Below, one piece after another: positions 2,563-11,608 of a stretch of 64,000 nucleotides of DNA. The position numbers and the translations under genes were made by a program. The notes beneath the pieces are model-generated. The model worked only from the letters and a program-made list of their open reading frames with translations. It searched no databases and was not told where the DNA came from. Origin of the DNA: Picochlorum sp. SENEW3 (Eukaryota); contig CP120458.1 of assembly GCA_034226945.1 (NCBI GenBank), positions 310,001 to 374,000 on the forward strand, read 5' to 3'. The number at the start of each line of letters is the position of its first letter. Positions within the stretch are counted from its first letter, which is position 1.

Positions 2563-3105
2563 CTAAACAATTGTTGTCTGATGATCACTCGTCGCACACC
2601 AGCACGAATCCACGACAACGCTCAGCCAAACACGCACAAGACTATACGTATTAAACAACCACACAGAGACGGATATACACGCGTCACCTGCAATACAGAA
2701 CACCCGTCAGAACCGCTATCAACATAGATCCACCCCCACCCATCCAACACTCCCTTCCATGGGACTCTCTCAACATCCCCTACCCGCCCCCACAACAACG
2801 ACCACAGCACCCCCACCACAGCCACAGCAACCATCTCATCTTCCGGATAGGAATTATTACAATTAATTTATATGGATGAGACCATGGCAGATAGCTGTGC
2901 CTGTCAGTCTATGACAAGACTGCAGATGAAATCAGCAGCAGATGGCGATCCATCCACTGACACTCATTCTCTCATCAAAGGATGAACAATGTCATACCAC
3001 GTACTTTATAGTTGTTGATATTAATTCAGTATGACTGTCTACTGAATGATTCATATGTCTTGTCATGGGAAGAGTCCTCCATCTCTGACAATCTGTCCCT
3101 TCTTC

Positions 3106-3157
3106 TTCCTACAGGAGATCTAGAGATCGGATCTCTTCTTCTTATTCCTACAGGAGA
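3106..3157. repeat. Short direct repeat (TTCCTACAGGAGA x2) with nearby small palindromes
   Basis: Identical 13-mers at 3106-3118 and 3145-3157 in CT-rich sequence upstream of ORF 3227. Confidence 0.6.
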
Positions 3158-3229
3158 GATCTCTCTTCTTACTACTAGTAGATACTAGAGGTCAGAATGC
3201 CTCGTATACTCAATGTAAATTTGTAATTG

Positions 3230-3631
3230 ATGGCATACTATTACTATTCCAGTTCGTCATACTATTGGTATGCGTGGCTGATCCTGGGGATTGGGATTAT
3301 TGTCATTGTCTTCCTGTTACTATTTCTGTATGGTCGGTACAGGAAGAGGAAGCAATTGATGCAACAGCAGCAGCAGCAGATGGAAATGCCTCCTTCCATG
3401 GGGGCAGGAGGAGGATACCCAATGCCAGGAGGAGCACCACCACCACCACCAGGAGGAGGTGGTGGATACCCACCTCAGGGATATGATCAATATGGACAGG
3501 TTCCTCCTCCGTATGGGTATGCGCAGCAGCAGCAGCAGTATCAGGATGATGGCATGGTGTATGGGTATCCTGTGAATGATGCTGGTGCATCGAATGCTGT
3601 TGCTGGGACCCCAGCCCAGCAGAGCAAGTAG
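3230..3631 (+). CDS. Small single-pass membrane protein with Pro/Gly/Tyr/Gln-rich cytoplasmic tail
   Basis: Hydrophobic WLILGIGIIVIVFLLLFLYG followed by basic RYRKRK, then PPPP, YPP and PPPY motifs. First ATG at 3230. Confidence 0.7.
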   Translation: MAYYYYSSSSYYWYAWLILGIGIIVIVFLLLFLYGRYRKRKQLMQQQQQQMEMPPSMGAGGGYPMPGGAPPPPPGGGGGYPPQGYDQYGQVPPPYGYAQQQQQYQDDGMVYGYPVNDAGASNAVAGTPAQQSK

Positions 3632-3928
3632 TAATGGTAGTCATGGAAATTTCTCTTCTCTCTCTTTGAGTGCGGCATGGATTGGTTTATTCCTTGTTTT
3701 TTTTGCTTTGAGAAAGATATAGAGAGGGATATTGTACTAGTCTAATAATAATAAGATACATAGATACAGTATGTTGATTCGTTATTGTAATAGAGTTGGG
3801 CGATGGGCCAGTGGACATGGCGTAGCACACTGTGGCACTTGGAAGAATGCGAATCGGATTCAAGGCGGCTCTTTGAGGTGGGTTTATGTTGATATACGTA
3901 TATATGATATAAATAAGATGATCATACT

Positions 3929-4702
3929 GTGGTATTGTATAGGGGGCGGCATGTGTGCAGTCGGGCTGGTGGGCAGGAAGGAGGAGATTCTGTGGTTGTG
4001 CTGCAGCATTCGGTGTTGGAGCGAGAGAGGGCGTTGAAGACTGGTCGGATGGTCAAGGTGGCTCATATTTTGTTGCAGAATGAGGGTGATGTTGGACGGG
4101 TGATGGGTGATATTGCTGGGATCCGGGTGGGGGATCTCTCCAGTGTGTTTGGGGATTTGGCACGGGAGTACTCGGCATGTCCGAGTGGGAAGAATGGGGG
4201 AGAGTTGGGGTGGGTTTCTGTGGGGCAGATGGTTGGAGAGTTTGAGGATGCCTGTTTCAGATCACAGCCAGAGGAGGTGGTTCAGTGTAGGACAGAGTAT
4301 GGTGATCATATTATTTGGATACAGGATGAGAAGATGCAGGGGGAGATCAAGCCAATGTCGGTGGAAGAGCTGTCAGGGTTGTTGACATGTGAGAGGACGG
4401 CAGATGGGCAGTTGGAGCTGGATACTGTGCAGCTGATTGATGTGAGAGAGCCATCTGAGATTGACATTGCCAAGCTGCCAGGGTTTTGGAAGGTGTTTTC
4501 GTTGAGTGCATTTGGAGAATGGGGTCCGAATGCCGAGTACCTGTTGGATCCTGACAAGACAACCATTGTGTTGTGTCATCATGGTATCCGAAGTGCTCAG
4601 GTTTGTCAATTTTTGCTCAAAAAGAATTTTAATGATTTACGGAATGTGACTGGGGGGATCAATGCCTACTGTAAGATTGATCCCTCCATTCCAGAATATT
4701 AG
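3929..4702 (+). CDS. Parvulin (PpiC) PPIase + rhodanese domain protein (STR12-like); N-terminus uncertain
   Basis: HILL, FGDLAREYSACPSGKNGGELGW, GQMVGEFE (parvulin). LIDVRE, CHHGIRS, GGINAY (rhodanese). Confidence 0.9.
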   Translation: MVLYRGRHVCSRAGGQEGGDSVVVLQHSVLERERALKTGRMVKVAHILLQNEGDVGRVMGDIAGIRVGDLSSVFGDLAREYSACPSGKNGGELGWVSVGQMVGEFEDACFRSQPEEVVQCRTEYGDHIIWIQDEKMQGEIKPMSVEELSGLLTCERTADGQLELDTVQLIDVREPSEIDIAKLPGFWKVFSLSAFGEWGPNAEYLLDPDKTTIVLCHHGIRSAQVCQFLLKKNFNDLRNVTGGINAYCKIDPSIPEY

Positions 4703-4729
4703 AACATGTAACAATCCTTTCAGCTATCG

Positions 4730-7700
4730 TTATAGCTGTGGTTGGAGCACTTGATCGATGCGAGCCTGCATTTCAAAAAGGCCAGCATGTAACGAGACTG
4801 TATCTTTGCTTATCTGGATGACTGTAGCATGCGCATTGATGGAGGGGACAAATACTCTGTCCCCAATTTTTGGCTCCCAATCTCCTGACGAGAAATTTTT
4901 CTTGTTTTCATCTGTGGCGAGTTTGTTCCTTTGATGCGTTGATTTGTAGTTCAACATCAAATCCTTTCGAGCCTGACGAACTGCATTGAAAATTTTCTGA
5001 GAACCTTTCACATCTCTGTTGGAAATCCTTTCCAGGATTTGTCTCCTGCAGGGTACATGGAAAACAATGTTACGAAATACATTCATCTCTCCATCGGTGT
5101 GGCCTTCCCTCGTAAATCCCCATGTGTATAAATTGGTCCCATGCCTCCGCCTCTGGATCTTCTTCATCCCAAATTTCAGACAAGTCTTGCTTATTGGCAC
5201 CGAGGTAATACTCCCAATCAAAACAAGACATATTCCTCCTATGTGCATCAGCCAGGATTCTATCAACCTTGGTATCAAGCCACAAATTCTGTGACGCCAC
5301 AAGAATGTGTTCGGTGATATTGTCCGACGTAGCTTCATCTCTCCACAACGATAGCCTCTCGGCTCGAACAGCACTCGGCCATTCTGATTCTAAAAATGCC
5401 CTTTTGACCTTGACAAACATGACCTCCATTGGGTCGATATCAGTGCCATCGTAAAATCCAGGTTGAAGTGGATTCAAGTCCCCATTACACCCGACTTCGT
5501 TCAGCAATTCTCTCGATCCCTGCCAATCTATGCCCTGGTACCGAGACATGAGCGAATCCATGCTATATCCAGCATTTAGAATTGCCTCACTCATACCTTG
5601 CTCCGAATGGAAAACAACATCCTCCATTTCATCGTAGCAATTGAATATTGTACTATTTGATCGAAGGACATTTAATCCCACAGGATCGGTGGCAACTGCA
5701 TAAGACTGCACATGCAGGGCTGGAAGGTGATCACCAGAATGTCCACAACAGATTGTTGGCCCAACTAGTTTCACACGATCTGACAATTTTTCTGTGAATG
5801 CCCTACTCCAATGATATTTATTATTCAAGTATGATGGCAGGAATGGGCCCCGCACTGATGAGTTCAACCATATAAAGTAGGAATATGAGTCAAGGTATGC
5901 TGAATCAGACATTTCAAGAACAGAAAACACCCATCCAACAGTGCCAATATCAAAGCACTTGTTTTCATGCTTCATCACTCTCAGATTCCCCATATTCACA
6001 CTTTTAAGCACGTCAGGTACATCATCTTCCATGTCAGATACCTGAATCACGATGATGTAATCGCAATTGTCGTTTTCCTGAGGATTGGAATCACAAACAG
6101 AATTAGCTGCAACAAGGACAATCCTCACAACCATGTGATTATATGACTCACCTTGATCCCCTCTTTCACAAAATACGATAGATTTCTCTCATATTCTGGA
6201 TCTGAATCGCTGAAAACATAAATCACCAGGGTAGGAGCCTGGGCCTTCCATGCTTCCTCTTCACCAACCTTGCTTGTCTGTGTTGACCCTCCATTCCCCC
6301 AGATCTTCAGGGCAAGTAGAACAACAATGAGGCTTATAGTAACTTTATGTTTATAGCAATTAGTTCGCTCGTATTCTGATCCTTTCGGCGACTTATGGAG
6401 GCTTTTCGATCTCTGTGACCTCATGGCAACAACATCGCGAAAGTGCTAAACTTCCAGCAAAGGCAGAATCTGATCCTTTAAAATCTTTCCATTGTTATTT
6501 TTATACGCTTTTTGGAGCATTACTTTGGCGATGGAGTAGGGAGATGTTGCAAATAAGCCAATTATTTTCATTGTTCCCAGGCCAATAATGGCTCCCTCTG
6601 GGCACACATGGCCAAGGTGCACAATTAACAAGACATGTACGACGGGGACCCACGAGAGAAACACTCACCAAATACAAAAAGCATTACATACCTGGAATAT
6701 TGCAGGATACCCTTGGACCTCTGCCTTTTGCTCCTTATTTGACTGATTTTGTATGTGATATTGTCTTCTTCTTTTCTCAGAGATTCCAAGAAGGCCAGGC
6801 TGTCATTGACTTCGTGGGCGTCAGTTCCTAACAAGGCACAAGCGTTATGGACAATTTCATGCCCCAAGTGGAGATTCTCGGCGATATTAAGTGCGCAACT
6901 TCGTCCTGGGACGCCCCAGAGCAGCTTGTAAGTGGGCTCTAGATTCACCTCATCAAATTCTACACTGACATTCTCGAATACACCCGGTTTGGAATACTTC
7001 AGGCTCGTCAGGGCACTGTGATGTGTCGTTGCAAATGTTATGCAAGATCCACCGGGTTTATCCCGCGACAAAGCATCCATGACAGCAAGACCCAGGGCAG
7101 CTCCATCAATGGCATCAGTCCCAGTACCCAGTTCATCCAATAGAACCAATGATTTACCGGTTGATTCTTTCCTGATGTTTTCAATGCGTTTCAAGTGTCC
7201 ACTAAATGTTGAAAGATTGGACGATAGGCTCTGTTCGTCACCTATATCTGCAAGAATGGCATCAAAGCATGGTATACTAATTGGTGCCTCTGCTGGGATT
7301 GGGATACCACATTTGGCCATCATACTTGCTAAACCCACCGCTTTCAGCACCGCAGTCTTACCTCCTGTATTTGGACCTGTAATGATAATACCTTTCGTAC
7401 TTTGTCGTGCAAAAATATCCACAGGAACAGGACCAGAATGCGTTTCCATGCCAGTATCTGAGCATTCCATTGATTGATGCCCAGAAGAGGGTCTTCTCCA
7501 CCCAGGTAGCCTTTTTCGGCTACCTTCACCAGATTTTGTCGCCACAGCAGTAGTTTCACTCGCAGACGCTTCCTTCTCGAGAAGATACTTGGCCATTAGA
7601 AGGGGGTGTCTTAGTTTTCTAAGGAGAAGAAATTTTGATTCGTCTTCTACCTGATTTTTTAATGCTCCCTTCATTCTTCGAGGCTTCCCTGTTCTTTTGA

Positions 7701-8847
7701 ATGAAGAAAATTTAGTCACTAAAGACCCTGAAATCCAATTACCAAATCTATAGCGCGCATAAATGGTGTCCAACCAGACTAAAGAGGACAGATATTGCTC
7801 CAAAACAGAATCAACCATTGAAACCTGATCTGTCAGGGACCACAGAACAGATTCCTCAGCGATTCTTAGTTCCTCTTTTGCTTGTACTAGATCATTATTA
7901 ATATTTACCGCAGCTTCAGGCTCTATAATCCAAGCTGATCCTCCAAATTTCGAACCTACCATGACACAGCCTTTTGGTGGATCTCTACCCTTTCCAGAAA
8001 CAACACAAAGGCGGCCCTTATGTTCCTCAATATCTTCACCATATTTGTTTAAAATTCCTTTCAGTCTCTTCTCCAATGTCCTTACTCTTCCCGACGCCTT
8101 CCGAACGTCATCACTGGATCCCTCTTTTACACTGCCACACTCATCAATCTTGGCAAAAATAGCAGATGCCACACCTGAAGGCACATCTGACGATATATCC
8201 AGAAATTCTCTCGAGATGAAACTAATGCGTTCACCTTCACCTTGTTCTTCAGCCTGGTAGACGGCTTCCCGAATTTTTCTCTGAACTTTGAGGGCTCCTC
8301 TTATAAGGGAAGCAATTGCCAGTAACCCCTCCCCATGCAACATGCCTCCGCGCTTGACTCGCTGAAGACATTCTCGAGATTCAAGAGTCTGTATTCCTCC
8401 AAAATCGATATCAAGCAAGTATTCCTCTTGAAGCAATGTGACTGCTTGCGTCTCGTTGATCTTCTTGAGAGATTCTTGTTCAGTGGTTGGAGGAGTCATA
8501 TCTTCCAAGCAAGCTCTCTGTCCAAGACTTGTTTGCGCAAAACCTGATACGTACTTGCAGAGCTCAAACCATTCCAGGGCCTCCATTGTTGCCTCCTGAG
8601 CAGTTCGATGTACCATTGATGACTGACCAGCTCGCACGCCGCTCCCTTTGAGGCCAGACGACGGGGAAGAAAAAGTCAAAATTTTGCCCAGCCCCCCAGA
8701 CCGAGTCATACATAGATTCTTAGAGTAATAATATGCTTTTAATTCATTTTTTGATCTTCTAGGTCCATAGTAACATGGCAGCGTGCTAGAAACACGCTGA
8801 GAATTGGTAATTCTCTGCTGACCACAGGTATCCACTCTCCAGGACAT
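4730..8847 (-). CDS. MUTS2: MutS2-family ATPase, probably plastid; exon 1 8847-6692, intron 6691-5046, exon 2 5045-4730 (coiled-coil + KOW); no Smr domain seen
   Basis: LEW N-terminal motif, LRHPLL, ITGPNTGGKT, ADIGDEQSLSSNLSTFSGH, LLDELGTGTD, TTH. Donor AG|GTATGT and acceptor CCCTGCAG|G join in frame to a KOW-like KIGDRVFVPSINAHATV tail. Confidence 0.88.
5070..6424 (-). CDS. Type II membrane glycosyltransferase-like (RgpF/GT-A-like) protein, 426 aa, 2 exons (6424-6152, 6077-5070); nested in the MutS2 intron
   Basis: Signal anchor ISLIVVLLALKIW. Phase-0 GTGAGT..CAG intron 6151-6078. HENKCFDIG, YFIWLNSSVRGPFLP and HVQSY motifs. C-terminal FDWEYY..N..DL...G..EGR module. Confidence 0.75.
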
Positions 8848-9211
8848 TGCCTCCTACTCTATTTCATCCATATTACAGTATAATTTTCAAAAATGATTGC
8901 GAATATGACAGTCAAATCCACATTCTTGGCCGCATCCATCACAACAATGCTCACCACAACATGTGAACCATCAGTGGGTACCCAGTTGATATTCACCAGT
9001 GAATGGATCATCACGTTGCACTCACGATTCAAGGCATCTGGTCCGTGACTATGCTTGGCATGAGTAGTTCATGATCATGAGTAGCAGCCAAGATGAGGAA
9101 GGAAGCTTCTAAAGAAAGTTGCAGATCTGAAGTCGGTTGTACTGAATTGCACCAAATCTACAATTCGTGCTATAGATGCCTCTAGTCACCGTGCTATCGC
9201 AATACCCATGA

Positions 9212-10348
9212 TTATTGAGATGTTTCTTTCAATGCAACCTTTGCCATCTGCGTAACACCTTCAAGGGTCTTATTTCCACCAATAAATCCAGACGCATGCA
9301 CAAATATGCAGCCAGGAATACCAGAAAGCTCAGATAAGGCATCATCACGAAGACCTCTCCATTCTTCTGGCAGTGGCTTTCTCGAGTTGAAGCTTTCCGG
9401 TGCTACTGCCACGGCCTGGATTCTCCAGGATCCATCCTTGTCATCATTATATATGACATATTTGATGTCACCTTCAATGCCCATCTCCTTCTCCAATTCA
9501 TAAATATGATTCTTCCAGGGAACGAATGTCGACAATTTCATCACCTGGCCTGATGGATCCACGGACTTTCTGTTTCTAATATCTTCTTGGACATATGATC
9601 TTGCTGGAAGCCAGGACTTGATTTGATACTGTAGACAGCCCATAAACTCTGATCCAGTCATATCCATAGCCTGTCTGAATCTCCCCATCGTCTCTGCATC
9701 TGAAATACTTTCATACCATTGCGCATTGAGGTTGCCAACACGAGCAGACAGGTGCGTGTTGTTAATGTATCGTGGAGGCTGAGATGACTCATATTGATTC
9801 ACCCCATTATCAATGGCGTCCACCGCCTCCATGAACGACTTGTACACCTGTAAATATACTGCTTGTATATCTTCCTCGTTTGCTGAATCACCCATCTCCT
9901 TTCTCACAATCTCCTTTCCAAAATGCTTGTAGACCAACCCAGCACTGGAAAGTTTGGTGGAGAACCCATGACCAAATACTTCATCGAACCCCTTCTGATG
10001 ATGATCATATCGATCCTTTGCGGGATCATATACTCCTCCTACATCTATGACGACATTGAGGGTATCCAACAGCGACGGATCTCTCGATCTAACAACCTCT
10101 GCTCCAGCAAACTTTTCAGTCTGTAGCAGTAAGAAACAACCCAGCGCCTCATCGCAATGGAATGTTCCACTATGCGTTCCGACTGTCTTCATTGATTTAT
10201 GCTTTTTTATTGCTGCTGCGCCCTGGATATCGTTGTTGCTGGCCCTGAGGTTGTTCGACATGCGGCGCTTCAGAGGTGACCCAGAAGGGAAGAAGAGAAG
10301 ATTTGGCCCTCGTGTCCTGATCAACTTACAGAAATTAAATGATGACAT
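9212..10348 (-). CDS. MYG1: MYG1 (UPF0160) exonuclease / metal-dependent hydrolase
   Basis: GTHSGTFHCDEALG, DVGGVYDP..RYDHHQ, KLSSAGLVY, DAIDNG, FVHASGFIGG. Confidence 0.95.
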   Translation of the reverse strand: MSSFNFCKLIRTRGPNLLFFPSGSPLKRRMSNNLRASNNDIQGAAAIKKHKSMKTVGTHSGTFHCDEALGCFLLLQTEKFAGAEVVRSRDPSLLDTLNVVIDVGGVYDPAKDRYDHHQKGFDEVFGHGFSTKLSSAGLVYKHFGKEIVRKEMGDSANEEDIQAVYLQVYKSFMEAVDAIDNGVNQYESSQPPRYINNTHLSARVGNLNAQWYESISDAETMGRFRQAMDMTGSEFMGCLQYQIKSWLPARSYVQEDIRNRKSVDPSGQVMKLSTFVPWKNHIYELEKEMGIEGDIKYVIYNDDKDGSWRIQAVAVAPESFNSRKPLPEEWRGLRDDALSELSGIPGCIFVHASGFIGGNKTLEGVTQMAKVALKETSQ

Positions 10349-10736
10349 GAAATAACTGTTTGGAAGGATGCGAGTTGGCCTACGAATAAGATGCTCCTTT
10401 GCGGAGCAATTCTCTTATTGCAGATTTGCTGCTCTGACTCAAGCAGCAAAAGTACACACGATGTTCACACACAAGTGTGCCAATACAATAGTTCCATGCC
10501 CAAGAGTATGTTACATACAGAGAGATATGACAAAAATATGTTGATTGAGAAAATTCTTCCAAACATACAAAACATGAAAATGTCCAACCACATGCAACTC
10601 TCCCGGACAGGTTTTTTTCATCTCAGACCTGAGTTGATGACACAATCATGGGATCCAGATTGAATGATCACCTCACTAAAGAATTCAGCTTGGTACAGAA
10701 TCTTTAGCACTCAAATCAAGCAACACTCTCACCAGC

Positions 10737-11608
10737 TTAGGCGACAGAGCGCTTCTCTGGGGACTGGTGGTCCTTGGCACCGGTTGGGCGGTGGACCAAG
10801 AGGAGGGAGCACTGCACCTGCTTGACATTGTCAAAAGCGACGAGTCTGATGTAGGCATCTGGGAAGGCCTTGGTGCAAGCCTTGATCTCGGTCACAACCT
10901 GGGCTCCATCAGTGCATCCGAACATTGGCAACTTCCACATAGACCAGTAACGGTTATCGAAGTAGTTGCATGTAACTCCTCCAGACATACGTCCAGTGTT
11001 GGTGGACTTGACGTAGGCAGTCTCTGGGGAAGAGAACTCCAAGCATGGGGTGTATCCATTGCGGACAATGTAGTCAACCTGCTTGATGATCTCCTCCTCG
11101 GAGAGTGGTGGGAGATAAGAGAAGGTCTCGAAGAACTTGTTGTCAATTGGGTTCCACACCTGCATGATGAATAGTTGTTTAGGTCAGACAGGATCACCGC
11201 AACGCGAGTACGCCATATCACTGCCTAGGTCAAAACGCTCTCTTCCCGATGTGATGTTCTCGCCGCATCCGTGACGATCGCCACAATGTGTTATCCATTA
11301 TAGTCAATAACTATTATTAATCACATATCCGCGCTAGATGACGACTGGAAGAGGACAAAATCGGTCATCGAGAGCGTAGTAGGAAGTTGAAGGCGGCCCT
11401 CCTTATCCATCGACTCCATGGACGTTCATGACGCCCATTGGCCTGCTACATTCACGATCAAACAACTATAACTCACCTGGAAGGCATTGGTCTTCTTGGC
11501 AGCAACGTTAGCAGCCTTGAAGGAGACAGCCTTGGAGGCTGGCTTCATGGCAGTGGTGCGAGAAGCAACCACTGGGGCGGAGACGATAGCAGCAGCAATA
11601 GCAACCAT
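10737..11608 (-). CDS. RBCS: Rubisco small subunit precursor; exons 11608-11477 and 11159-10737
   Basis: Ala-rich transit peptide, [29 protein letters not shown]. Phase-0 intron 11476-11160. Confidence 0.98.

What the first reader, a model, noticed from the sequence alone, without database searches (positions are those of the whole stretch)
4730..6692. A complete gene nested on the same strand inside a MutS2 intron, ending 24 nt from the host acceptor
Seen in sequence: the MutS2 ORF has a strong donor (AG|GTATGT at 6692/6691) just after its ATPase domain. The missing MutS2 coiled-coil/KOW tail lies 1.65 kb away behind an acceptor (CCCTGCAG|G at 5046/5045). The join is in frame: ...GILQYSR-RQILERIS...KIGDRVFVPS...*. 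The other introns I modelled here are about 60-320 nt. This one contains a whole 426-aa two-exon gene with its own intron, and its TAA (5070) lies only 24 nt from the host acceptor. Inference: the guest's 3'UTR must run into the host's last exon and probably shares its poly(A) site. Its promoter or leader would sit in the ~270 bp after the host donor, or both proteins come from alternative processing of one pre-mRNA, with the unspliced form giving a truncated MutS2 that ends at 6625. Same-strand nesting is the less usual arrangement, and the host must skip the guest's splice sites.
Basis: partly seen in the sequence, partly recalled or inferred. Interest (0 to 1): 0.85.

Follow-up and report, generated by a model that had tools for sequence, protein, structure and literature searches.

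The report
Gene nested inside MutS2's only intron
In this small green alga a complete gene for a probable sugar-adding enzyme sits, on the same strand, inside the single intron of a chloroplast ribosome-rescue gene (MutS2), and relatives keep the same layout while public annotations misread it.

Summary
On the minus strand a MutS2 ORF ends its first exon at 6692 (AG|GTATGT). It resumes at 5045 (CTGCAG|G), in frame, and stops at 4730. The 1,646-nt intron holds a 426-aa two-exon gene on the same strand. That gene's TAA (5072-5070) lies 24 nt before the host acceptor.

Contigs of a run that behaves as RNA, from a strain about 96-98% alike, join 6692 to 5045 and 6152 to 6077. Both joints have GT..AG ends.

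The tail is MutS2-like: Pfam MSSS at E 5.9e-5, and BLASTP at 6e-11 to the C-terminus of a full-length algal MutS2. The host is a MutS2 without an Smr domain, the plastid "MutS2A" type. The guest is a type II membrane protein, probably with a GT-A glycosyltransferase fold.

The order body, guest, tail, with the same intron position and phase, recurs in five metagenome loci. Four more loci show part of it. Chlorella and Parachlorella gene models imply it.

Public models fuse or truncate the parts in at least four ways.

A promoter of the guest's own and a shared poly(A) site are inferred, not shown. This is a real and old nested pair: a new variant of a known kind, of moderate interest.

The parts
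6692..8847 (-). Host MutS2 (MutS2A-type) exon 1: the coding body with the MutS domain V ATPase. Start taken at the ATG at 8847, as in public model P0255. A second in-frame ATG at 8709 is the start used in P0108.
   Evidence: ORF. Pfam MutS_V E 1.1e-32. 718 aa identical to the first 718 residues of P0255. RNA-like contig rec21 covers 6876-8529 without a joint. ATG positions.
5046..6691 (-). The host's only detected intron, 1,646 nt, GT..AG, phase 2, splitting an Arg codon (AG|G). It contains the whole guest coding sequence.
   Evidence: Sequence. Joint 'skips 1646, CT..AC (cut +1)' in run X5, contig rec18, with 215 and 344 letters on the two sides. Same position and phase in L003, L004, L005, L006 and L008.
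4730..5045 (-). Host exon 2: 104 codons after the split Arg, comprising the end of the coiled coil and a KOW/SH3-like MSSS domain, then the stop at 4732-4730. No Smr domain follows.
   Evidence: Pfam PF20297 MSSS E 5.9e-5, 23.1 bits, below the 26.8 cut-off. BLASTP E 6e-11 to residues 838-900 of the 900-aa Nannochloris MutS2 P0232. Alignment with tails of relatives. Identical to the last 104 aa of P0255.
6152..6424 (-). Guest exon 1 (coding part): 91 codons with an N-terminal hydrophobic anchor at residues 28-46.
   Evidence: Highest Kyte-Doolittle 19-mer at residue 28, mean 1.69. tblastn matches in relatives.
6078..6151 (-). Guest intron, 74 nt, GT..AG.
   Evidence: Joint 'skips 74' in X5 contig rec20, with 404 and 567 letters on the two sides. 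The X5 depth in bin 6012-6212 (92.2) equals the contig depth (145.9) times the exonic share of the bin. The intron is absent in L003, L005 and L006, where the guest is one ORF.
5070..6077 (-). Guest exon 2 (coding part): 335 codons plus TAA at 5072-5070. Probable GT-A-fold glycosyltransferase domain followed by a helical C-terminal part.
   Evidence: 106 homologues, none with a known function, 4 of them carrying PF05045 RgpF. Model and fold searches.
6425..6691 (-). Intron stretch between the host donor and the guest ATG (267 nt): inferred guest promoter and leader. About 60 nt before the ATG is conserved. A 4-codon uORF (6435-6421) overlaps the ATG.
   Evidence: Alignment with L010: 84% mean column identity over the whole 334-column alignment, which also includes host-exon and guest-coding flanks. 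It is nearly identical from about 6480 to the ATG, and the TATAAA at 6505 is not conserved. X5 contig rec20 covers the whole stretch. The function is inferred.
5046..5069 (-). 24-nt spacer between the guest stop and the host acceptor. It must hold the host's polypyrimidine tract and AG. It leaves no room for a separate 3' end of the guest.
   Evidence: The spacer is 25 nt in L006, 90 in L001, 120-122 in L003, L004 and L008, and 221 in L005. None holds TGTAA.

Best explanation
This is a true same-strand nested gene pair in a Picochlorum-type trebouxiophyte green alga.

**Host.** The host is the nuclear gene for a plastid-type MutS2 without an Smr domain ('MutS2A'). It has two exons. Its single 1,646-nt intron (6691-5046) splits an Arg codon in the coiled coil between the ATPase and the C-terminal KOW/SH3-like domain.

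**Guest.** Inside that intron lies an unrelated 426-aa gene for a type II membrane protein. It is probably a Golgi-type GT-A glycosyltransferase, distantly related to RgpF.

**Shown.**
- Both spliced forms exist in RNA-like contigs of a close relative.
- The tail is MutS2-like.
- The order body, guest, tail, and the intron position and phase, are kept in relatives whose guest proteins are only 45-62% identical.

**Inferred.**
- (a) The guest is transcribed from its own start in the 267 nt after the host donor.
- (b) Only 24 nt separate its stop from the host acceptor. Its mRNA therefore runs unspliced over the acceptor, uses the host's last coding exon as 3'UTR, and ends at the host's poly(A) site.
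- (c) Host pre-mRNAs must pair donor 6692 with acceptor 5045 and ignore the guest's sites. Either cross-splice would shift the frame and stop early.
- (d) The arrangement is old within Trebouxiophyceae and persists because neither gene can be removed without harming the other.
For: **Anatomy.** The anatomy and the in-frame join are read directly from the sequence.

**RNA-like contigs of run X5.**
- rec18 (559 nt) joins 6905..6692 to 5045..4688.
- rec20 (971 nt) joins 6717..6151 to 6076..5673.
- Both skipped parts have GT..AG ends on the minus strand.
- X5 has no cover in the guest intron (by bin arithmetic) and none at 3600-4001.
- The DNA runs X1, X2 and X15 show no joint.

**Independent trace of the spliced guest.** P0261 is a 426-aa protein, 406 of 426 residues identical, called on a 2,141-nt contig.

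**Tail.** MSSS at E 5.9e-5, 6e-11 to the C-terminus of P0232, and an alignment with 10 other tails.

**Host type.** MutS_V only, with no Smr hit. The closest full-length relatives carry PF20297 plus PF00488 without PF01713. MutS2A lacks Smr and is plastid-targeted (PMC11275761, passages read).

**Conservation.**
- Of 78 metagenome loci, L003, L004, L005, L006 and L008 show body, guest, tail on one strand.
- L001 and L073 show guest then tail. L010 and L048 show body then guest, up to the contig end.
- Donor AG|GT and acceptor CAG|G fall in the same Arg codon in all loci where they could be read.
- The Chlorella variabilis model P0021 and the Parachlorella model P0019 are guest plus MutS2 tail.
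- Parachlorella tags 000131/000132 and Micractinium tags 014012/014013 are consecutive.
- In a tree of 82 guest-family rows, all 9 nested and 8 linked rows fall in one 53-row clade with SH-aLRT 97.

**Own start.**
- 48 ATGs precede the guest ATG in an unspliced host RNA.
- Green-algal bicistronic loci rely on leaky scanning and are depleted of start codons before ORF 2 (PMC11291117, abstract read).
- The roughly 60 nt before the guest ATG are better conserved than the rest of the intron.

**Cross-splices.** Host donor to guest exon 2 stops after 9 codons. Guest donor to the host's last exon stops after 45 codons.
Against: - The RNA evidence is from assembled contigs of a run whose kind is only guessed to be RNA, and from a related strain rather than the window's own. 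Contigs show no transcript ends, strand or level.
- No guest 5' end or 3' end was seen, so the guest's own promoter and the shared poly(A) site are inference only.
- rec20 runs through the whole upstream intron part to the host exon boundary (26 letters into the exon). This is also what a host-promoter, intron-retaining RNA would give.
- No recognisable TGTAA signal follows the host stop within 430 nt, so the common 3' end could not be placed.
- The TATAAA at 6505 is not conserved in L010.
- The layout is not universal. L011 and L012 lie inside the 53-row nested/linked clade of the tree, and L012 sits in a starred 6-row clade (SH-aLRT 97) with the Chlorella and Micractinium guests. Its guest is 82% identical to Micractinium's. 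Both loci have about 8-10 kb of flank on each side and no MutS2.
- L007 has 2.6 kb downstream and no tail.
- Nannochloris-like relatives appear to have an uninterrupted MutS2 ORF with the guest as the next gene.
- The guest's function rests on weak fold matches only: Foldseek best E 0.022, best VIA Z 8.2.
Confidence: 0.8

Rival explanations
1. One transcription unit. Both proteins come from RNAs started at the MutS2 promoter. Spliced RNA gives full MutS2. Intron-retaining RNA gives a truncated MutS2 (stop at 6627-6625) and serves as a bicistronic message for the guest.
For: X5 contig rec20 is continuous from guest exon 2 through the whole upstream intron part to the exon boundary. Polycistronic nuclear mRNAs are common in green algae, including a trebouxiophyte (PMC7896298, listing; PMC11291117, abstract). 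No promoter motif conserved with L010 was found.
Against: The guest ATG would lie behind a roughly 740-codon ORF and 48 ATGs. The leaky-scanning mechanism described for algal bicistronic loci needs a weak ORF 1 start and few start codons before ORF 2. rec20 reaches only 26 letters into the host exon, below the 31 the tool requires for bridging. A conserved leader-like stretch directly before the guest ATG suggests a separate 5' end.
Confidence: 0.1
2. The public reading is right: one long fusion protein (MutS2 body, guest, tail; 1,218 aa), or a guest-tail fusion as modelled in Chlorella and Parachlorella.
For: P0255 ('Endonuclease MutS2', named by its source as Picochlorum sp. SENEW3) equals the window's body (718 aa), guest residues 31-426 and tail (104 aa), letter for letter. 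P0021 and P0019 are guest plus tail. P0108, P0257 and P0258 are body plus guest.
Against: The RNA-like contig joins 6692 directly to 5045, and no contig joins the host donor to 6334. The 1,218-aa model needs a 27-nt 'intron' made of the guest's stop codon and the 24-nt spacer. A stop codon ends the guest in all 7 loci examined. The public models disagree with each other. P0261 is the guest alone at 426 aa.
Confidence: 0.03
3. The tail exon is a relic. The working MutS2 ends shortly after 6692, and the downstream MSSS-like ORF is a decaying remnant left by insertion of the guest.
For: The Pfam score of the tail is below the family cut-off. Several public models end MutS2 at or just after the donor: P0107, P0117, P0125 and P0131.
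Against: The join is present in RNA-like contigs. The tail ORF is open, of similar length (103-116 aa), and keeps its conserved tryptophan/proline/glycine/valine-containing motif in all 5 tails aligned from DNA (the window, L001, L003, L005, L006). These come from relatives whose guest proteins are 45-62% identical to the window's. A custom tail profile scores the locus tails at 97-124 bits.
Confidence: 0.03
4. Assembly artefact: the guest or the tail was placed here by misassembly.
For: None found. The single full-length DNA contig (X15) may be the window's own source, so it is not independent.
Against: The same order occurs in nine independently assembled metagenome loci (five complete, four partial) and is implied by annotated genomes of three other genera. 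DNA contigs of X1 and X2 overlap the parts without conflict.
Confidence: 0.01

Closest known systems
Same-strand nested (host/intronic) protein-coding gene pairs, as catalogued in Drosophila and mammals
   Same: A complete coding gene lies inside an intron of another gene. The host must splice across it. In Drosophila, same-strand guests tend to have few or no introns (PMC3814207, passages read). Here the guest is intronless in L003, L005 and L006 and has one short intron in the window.
   Different: In the Drosophila set the coding sequences and UTRs of the two genes do not overlap (abstract of PMC3814207, listing). Here the 24-nt spacer forces the guest transcript over the host acceptor and into host coding sequence. 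Fly nested genes are mostly young and on the opposite strand (71%). This pair is on the same strand and is kept across genera. The genome looks compact, though that is an impression from the gene spacing.
H13/Mcts2-type loci, where an active nested gene interferes with host transcript processing
   Same: A nested gene inside a host intron, whose activity and the host's RNA processing are expected to interfere.
   Different: As far as I saw (title and start of the abstract of PMC13309782 only, listing), that case concerns intronic polyadenylation of the host. Here there is no room for a guest poly(A) site before the host acceptor, so the two most likely share one 3' end. No interference was measured here.
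Green-algal nuclear bicistronic/polycistronic loci
   Same: Two unrelated proteins are encoded on one strand in one locus of a green alga. A trebouxiophyte (Auxenochlorella) is among the studied species (PMC11291117, abstract read).
   Different: Those loci have ORF 1 with a weak start and few start codons before ORF 2. Here 48 ATGs and a roughly 740-codon ORF precede the guest, and the host's mature mRNA removes the guest altogether.
Loci with alternative first exons and shared 3' exons, such as CDKN2A p16/ARF (recalled, from no call)
   Same: Two unrelated proteins come from transcripts that share a 3' exon and poly(A) site.
   Different: Here the shared exon would be coding in one mRNA and untranslated in the other. 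The guest would reach it without splicing. The sharing itself is inferred, not shown.
Plant MutS2A (Arabidopsis AT5G54090 type)
   Same: MutS domain V ATPase, a C-terminal coiled coil plus a KOW/SH3-like domain, and no Smr domain. It is of cyanobacterial origin and plastid-targeted, with a role in plastid ribosome quality control (PMC11275761, passages; bioRxiv 10.1101/2025.09.02.673837, abstract).
   Different: Targeting and function were not tested here. The gene structure with a gene inside its intron is not mentioned in the passages I read.

Membership tests
Same-strand nested gene pair (guest inside a host intron) | The guest coding sequence lies wholly within one host intron, on the same strand | tested here: met
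   Guest ATG at 6424 to TAA at 5070, inside intron 6691-5046, both on the minus strand.
Same-strand nested gene pair (guest inside a host intron) | The host intron, with the guest in it, is removed from host RNA | tested here: met
   X5 contig rec18 joins 6692 to 5045, with 215 and 344 letters on the two sides. The run is from a strain about 96-98% alike, and its RNA nature is inferred from the joints and the empty guest intron.
Same-strand nested gene pair (guest inside a host intron) | The guest is expressed as its own processed RNA | tested here: met
   X5 contig rec20 lacks the 74-nt guest intron. P0261 is the spliced 426-aa product on a 2,141-nt contig.
Same-strand nested gene pair (guest inside a host intron) | The guest has its own promoter and its own 3' end, without overlap with host exons | tested here: inconclusive
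   No transcript ends could be seen, since only contigs were available. The 24-nt spacer argues against a separate 3' end. Leader conservation is a weak hint of a separate start.
MutS2A (Smr-less plastid MutS2 of Viridiplantae) | MutS domain V ATPase without the mismatch-recognition domain I | tested here: met
   Pfam reports only PF00488 MutS_V (E 1.1e-32) on the 640-aa body at E up to 0.1.
MutS2A (Smr-less plastid MutS2 of Viridiplantae) | C-terminal coiled coil plus KOW/SH3-like (MSSS) domain | tested here: met
   PF20297 at E 5.9e-5, but 23.1 bits against a cut-off of 26.8. BLASTP 6e-11 to the C-terminus of P0232. Alignment.
MutS2A (Smr-less plastid MutS2 of Viridiplantae) | No Smr domain | tested here: met
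   No PF01713 hit. The stop at 4730 comes directly after the MSSS domain. A convergent PPIase-rhodanese gene ends 27 nt further on.
MutS2A (Smr-less plastid MutS2 of Viridiplantae) | Plastid transit peptide and plastid function | not tested
   No targeting predictor was run. The N-terminal extension before the conserved core is only noted.
GT-A fold glycosyltransferase / RgpF-like (PF05045) | Match to the family profile | tested here: not met
   No Pfam family at E up to 0.1 for either guest exon. Only 4 of 106 homologues carry a precomputed PF05045.
GT-A fold glycosyltransferase / RgpF-like (PF05045) | GT-A (nucleotide-diphospho-sugar transferase) fold | tested here: inconclusive
   The model has mean pLDDT 69.8. 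Foldseek found no match at E <= 0.001; the best is 0.022, a B3GNT2 chain. In the wide VIA search all 50 rows shown are GT-A-type transferases or nucleotidyltransferases, best Z 8.2, rmsd 3.8, 158 aligned. The tool says this is near the level of common arrangements.
GT-A fold glycosyltransferase / RgpF-like (PF05045) | Catalytic DxD-type metal/nucleotide-sugar motif | not tested
   No structural superposition of motifs was made.
Green-algal bicistronic locus (leaky scanning) | Few or no start codons between the 5' end and ORF 2 | tested here: not met
   48 ATGs lie between 8847 and the guest ATG. The criterion is from the abstract of PMC11291117.

The most novel reading that the evidence does not exclude
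The pair is an obligately coupled unit, not just a gene that happens to sit in an intron. The guest mRNA starts inside the host intron, reads through the host acceptor, and borrows the host's last coding exon and poly(A) site as its 3'UTR. Each passage of the locus therefore yields either a host or a guest message. Choices at the donor, at the acceptor and at the internal start set the ratio of a plastid ribosome-rescue factor to a secretory-pathway glycosyltransferase. This coupling would have been kept since early in trebouxiophyte evolution and undone only rarely. One route to undoing it is insertion of a spliced host cDNA end, which would explain Nannochloris, where MutS2 seems uninterrupted and the guest is the next gene.
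Probability: 0.3. Interest if true: 0.65.

Novelty: new variant of a known kind. Interest (0 to 1): 0.5.

Why it matters
1. **Annotation.** Public gene models read this locus in at least four different ways:
   - a 1,218-aa triple fusion;
   - body-guest fusions of 640 to 1,074 aa;
   - guest-tail fusions in Chlorella and Parachlorella;
   - MutS2 models cut off at the donor.

   Comparative work on MutS2A domain structure and on this glycosyltransferase-like family in Chlorellales rests on wrong proteins.

2. **Genome architecture.** Same-strand nesting with only 24 nt between the guest stop and the host acceptor is a natural test case. It shows how splice-site pairing, internal initiation and 3'-end formation coexist on one strand in an alga with tightly packed genes.

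3. **Evolution.** The layout is kept across genera, which is unlike the young nested genes of flies. Apparent reversals in Nannochloris-like relatives and in L011/L012 offer a way to study how nested genes are gained and lost.

4. **Host function.** The host belongs to a family just implicated in plastid ribosome quality control (abstract read). Correct algal models are therefore timely.

Tried and rejected
- a Pfam call failed on a frame slip of my own (exon 1 given one base off). It was corrected.
- no whole genome is held for this window, so genome-wide intron lengths and other nested genes could not be surveyed.
- no RNA holder is listed among the 19 runs. All are 'RNA?' guesses or unknown.
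- no X5 contig was laid on 5045-5097, so read-through of the guest RNA over the acceptor could be neither seen nor excluded. rec20 reaches only 26 letters into the host exon, below the 31 needed, so it does not count as bridging the donor. Depths were not used to rank the two genes, as the tool warns.
- the algal poly(A) motif TGTAA (recalled as the usual signal) is absent on the minus strand from 5070 down to 4300. It is absent from all 7 stop-to-acceptor spacers, but also absent within 400 nt after 5 of 7 tail stops. The scan is therefore uninformative.
- a TATAAA at 6505 looked like a guest TATA box but is not conserved in L010.
- no Pfam family for the guest.
- Foldseek against PDB gave nothing at E <= 0.001.
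- earlier findings of this scan hold nothing on this place, these words or this sequence.
- literature searches found no paper describing this locus. The terms were nested gene / same strand / intron / green alga; Picochlorum / nested genes / overlapping genes; four locus tags; and MutS2 / nested / Picochlorum. Only the held library was searched.
- **Not run:** the complex-prediction tool was not used, because no binding is claimed.
- **Considered and dropped:** a splice from near the guest's end into 5045 in the window, which would give a guest-tail fusion. The only GT there would give an intron of about 35 nt (by eye).
Full report
**What is there**

On the minus strand, the ORF 8853..6625 encodes a MutS-family protein. 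Pfam finds MutS domain V at E 1.1e-32 and nothing else. Just after the ATPase the reading frame meets a strong donor, CAG|GTATGT, with the exon ending at 6692 in phase 2. An acceptor, CTGCAG|G, lies 1,646 nt downstream, with the exon starting at 5045. The first G completes the split Arg codon, and the frame then runs for 104 codons to the stop at 4732-4730.

Between the two sites, on the same strand, lies a second gene:
- ATG at 6424;
- 91 codons to a donor at 6152;
- a 74-nt GT..AG intron;
- 335 codons from 6077 to TAA at 5072-5070.

It encodes 426 aa in all, and its stop lies 24 nt before the host acceptor. Every coordinate in the finding is exact.

**Is the join real?**

No run is on record as RNA. 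I laid four runs on 3600-9600.
- X15 covers the stretch in one identical DNA piece and may be the source of the window.
- X1 and X2 are low-depth DNA, without joints.
- X5 comes from an organism about 96-98% alike (34 differences in 1,654 letters of its longest piece).

X5 behaves as RNA on three counts:
- It has no cover at 3600-4001.
- Its depth in the bin holding the guest intron equals the contig depth times the exonic share of the bin.
- It shows exactly two joints, both with GT..AG ends on the minus strand.

Contig rec18 (559 nt) joins 6692 to 5045, with 215 and 344 letters on the two sides. Contig rec20 (971 nt) joins 6152 to 6077, with 567 and 404 letters.

An independent trace of the spliced guest is P0261. 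It is a 426-aa protein, 406 of 426 residues identical to the window's guest, called on a 2,141-nt contig.

**The tail belongs to MutS2**

- The 104-aa tail hits Pfam PF20297 (MutS2 and Smr-associated SH3 domain) at E 5.9e-5. The score of 23.1 bits is under the 26.8-bit cut-off.
- BLASTP aligns tail residues 39-103 to residues 838-900 of the 900-aa Nannochloris MutS2 P0232, at E 6e-11.
- The tail aligns along its length with ten other MutS2 tails, sharing a conserved motif built around a tryptophan, two prolines, a glycine and two valines.
- No Smr domain is present.
- A convergent gene for a PPIC-type PPIase with a rhodanese domain ends only 27 nt beyond the MutS2 stop.

The host is therefore the Smr-less type. 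The plant literature calls this MutS2A. It is described as of cyanobacterial origin and plastid-targeted, and as lacking the C-terminal Smr domain (PMC11275761, passages read). It has recently been implicated in plastid ribosome quality control (bioRxiv 10.1101/2025.09.02.673837, abstract read). I did not test targeting.

**The guest**

- No Pfam family matches either exon.
- A search with exon 2 found 106 homologues. Nearly all are green-algal or from metagenomes and are named 'hypothetical'. Four distant ones carry PF05045 (RgpF).
- Exon 1 encodes a single hydrophobic stretch at residues 28-46, as in type II membrane proteins.
- An AlphaFold model of exon 2 has mean pLDDT 69.8.
- Foldseek found no PDB match at E <= 0.001. 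The best is 0.022, a GT-A glycosyltransferase.
- In the wide VIA search all 50 rows shown are GT-A-type sugar transferases or nucleotidyltransferases. The best has Z 8.2, rmsd 3.8 and 158 residues aligned. The tool itself calls that level borderline.

I read the guest as a probable Golgi-type GT-A glycosyltransferase, with moderate confidence.

**Conservation**

A scan of metagenome contigs with a guest alignment returned 78 loci. I searched them with the window's parts and with MutS2 proteins and tails of other algae.
- Five loci carry MutS2 body, guest and tail in that order on one strand: L003, L004, L005, L006 and L008.
- L001 and L073 carry guest then tail, with the contig cut upstream.
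- L010 and L048 carry body then guest, with the contig cut downstream.
- Of the 46 loci with at least 1,500 nt upstream, 6 have the body. Of the 36 loci with at least 1,500 nt downstream, 5 have the tail.

In every locus where the sites could be read, the donor is AG|GT and the acceptor CAG|G, in the same Arg codon. Introns are 1,543-1,704 nt. The guest stop lies 25 nt (L006), 90 (L001), 120-122 (L003, L004, L008) or 221 nt (L005) before the acceptor.

Named genomes agree:
- The Chlorella variabilis model P0021 and the Parachlorella kessleri model P0019 are guest plus MutS2 tail.
- In Parachlorella and Micractinium the MutS2 and guest models bear consecutive locus tags.

I built a quick maximum-likelihood tree of 82 guest-family rows. 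I included 19 of the 78 loci, P0001-P0060, and seven further proteins. I left out L004 (near-identical to L008), the short L010 and L048, and the more distant loci and hits. All 9 rows with nesting seen, and all 8 rows linked to MutS2 by tags or by shared contig length, fall in one 53-row clade with SH-aLRT 97. Six of the nine rows with flanks but no MutS2 fall in the 26-row sister clade, together with Coccomyxa and Ulva proteins.

**Results against a universal layout**

- L011 and L012 lie inside the 53-row nested/linked clade of the tree. L012 sits in a starred 6-row clade (SH-aLRT 97) with the Chlorella and Micractinium guests, and its guest is 82% identical to Micractinium's. L011's placement within the 53-row clade is not starred. 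Both loci have about 8-10 kb on each side and no trace of MutS2, even with a relaxed tail profile.
- L007 has 2.6 kb downstream and no tail.
- In Nannochloris 'desiccata' the guest and MutS2 bear consecutive accessions or tags in five annotation sets, and the MutS2 models include the tail.
- In Nannochloris-like metagenome contigs, JGI/IMG calls give 939-958-aa MutS2 proteins with the tail. In the nested lineages, JGI/IMG calls instead stop at the donor or read on into the intron (P0114, P0138).
- From this I infer that the ORF is uninterrupted in Nannochloris-like relatives and that the guest is a neighbour there. I could not read that DNA.

On the tree the Nannochloris group sits among nested groups. 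That suggests secondary un-nesting, but the root and the order of events were not tested.

**Public annotation**

P0255 is named by its source 'Endonuclease MutS2 [Picochlorum sp. SENEW3]' and has 1,218 aa. It equals, letter for letter, the window's 718-aa body, then guest residues 31-426, then the 104-aa tail. That model needs a splice from the host donor region to 6334 and a 27-nt 'intron' made of the guest's stop plus the spacer. The RNA-like contigs show neither.

Other models differ again:
- Some fuse body and guest: P0108, P0257 and P0258.
- Some fuse guest and tail: P0021 and P0019.
- Some end MutS2 at the donor: P0107, P0117, P0125 and P0131.

**How it most likely works**

Shown:
- the architecture;
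- both splices, in a close relative;
- homology of the tail;
- conservation of the layout.

Inferred:
- (a) The guest has its own start in the 267 nt after the host donor. An unspliced host RNA would put 48 ATGs and a roughly 740-codon ORF before the guest ATG. Algal bicistronic messages instead depend on leaky scanning and are depleted of start codons before ORF 2 (PMC11291117, abstract). The 60 nt before the guest ATG, including a 4-codon uORF that overlaps it, are the best-conserved part of the intron against L010.
- (b) With 24 nt to the acceptor there is no room for a 3' end of the guest's own. The guest RNA must run over the acceptor into the host's last exon and probably ends at the host's poly(A) site.
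- (c) The host must pair 6692 with 5045. The two possible cross-splices shift the frame and stop after 9 and 45 codons.

The main rival is a single transcription unit with an intron-retaining bicistronic RNA. It is not excluded. rec20 is continuous through the upstream intron part to the exon boundary, but only 26 letters into the exon, which the tool does not count as bridging.

**Comparison and novelty**

Nested genes are well known. In Drosophila about 10% of genes are in nested structures, 71% of nested genes are on the opposite strand, and same-strand guests tend to lack introns (PMC3814207, passages; abstract in the listing). This pair belongs to that kind.

It differs in three ways:
- The guest transcript is forced to overlap the host's terminal coding exon.
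- It is kept across genera of Trebouxiophyceae.
- It sits among tightly packed genes.

Four literature searches found no description of it.

I rate it a new variant of a known kind, with interest 0.5. The practical point is that MutS2A and this glycosyltransferase-like family are wrongly modelled in several public algal genomes.

Noticed in passing
window 3917-4732, both strands: A convergent gene on the plus strand (PPIC-type PPIase plus rhodanese domains, ORF 3917-4702) stops 27 nt from the MutS2 stop (4730-4732). The two 3'UTRs must overlap in antisense. A plus-strand TGTAA lies at 4707, just after the neighbour's stop, while the minus strand has none from 5070 down to 4300.
   Followed up: partly
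window 6421-6435, minus strand: A 4-codon upstream ORF (ATG at 6435, TGA ending at 6421) overlaps the guest start codon in an ATGA arrangement. It is letter-for-letter conserved in L010, inside the best-conserved part of the intron.
   Followed up: partly
proteins P0255, P0108, P0257, P0258, P0021, P0019, P0117, P0125, P0131: Public gene models of this locus in Picochlorum, Chlorella, Parachlorella and Micractinium are chimeric or truncated in at least four different ways. They include triple fusion, body-guest, guest-tail, and body cut off at the donor.
   Followed up: yes
L012:9741-11196 and L011:9673-11048: Guest orthologues with introns lie in GC-rich contigs, with about 8-10 kb of flank on each side and no MutS2 body or tail. 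L012 is Chlorella-like (82% identical to the Micractinium guest). This could be relocation, duplication or loss of the nesting.
   Followed up: partly
L049:1-1385 and 3019-4524: Two tandem copies of a guest-family gene lie on one strand of one metagenome contig. The family is multi-copy in several algae (five Ulva proteins and two Coccomyxa subellipsoidea proteins).
   Followed up: no
window 9212-10414 and 10737-11183, minus strand: The genes upstream of MutS2 on the same strand are a MYG1/UPF0160 family protein (E 1.4e-136) and a RuBisCO small subunit (E 7.5e-38). Gene spacing of a few hundred bases fits a compact genome.
   Followed up: partly
window 3227-3631, plus strand: An ORF encodes a tyrosine- and serine-rich start, a hydrophobic stretch, then a glutamine-, proline-, glycine- and tyrosine-rich low-complexity tail. 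No search was made.
   Followed up: no
L003:2726-3071, L004 and L008 tails: The MutS2 tail of these relatives carries a short tandem peptide repeat (three copies in L003, two imperfect ones in L004/L008) between the coiled coil and the SH3-like domain.
   Followed up: no
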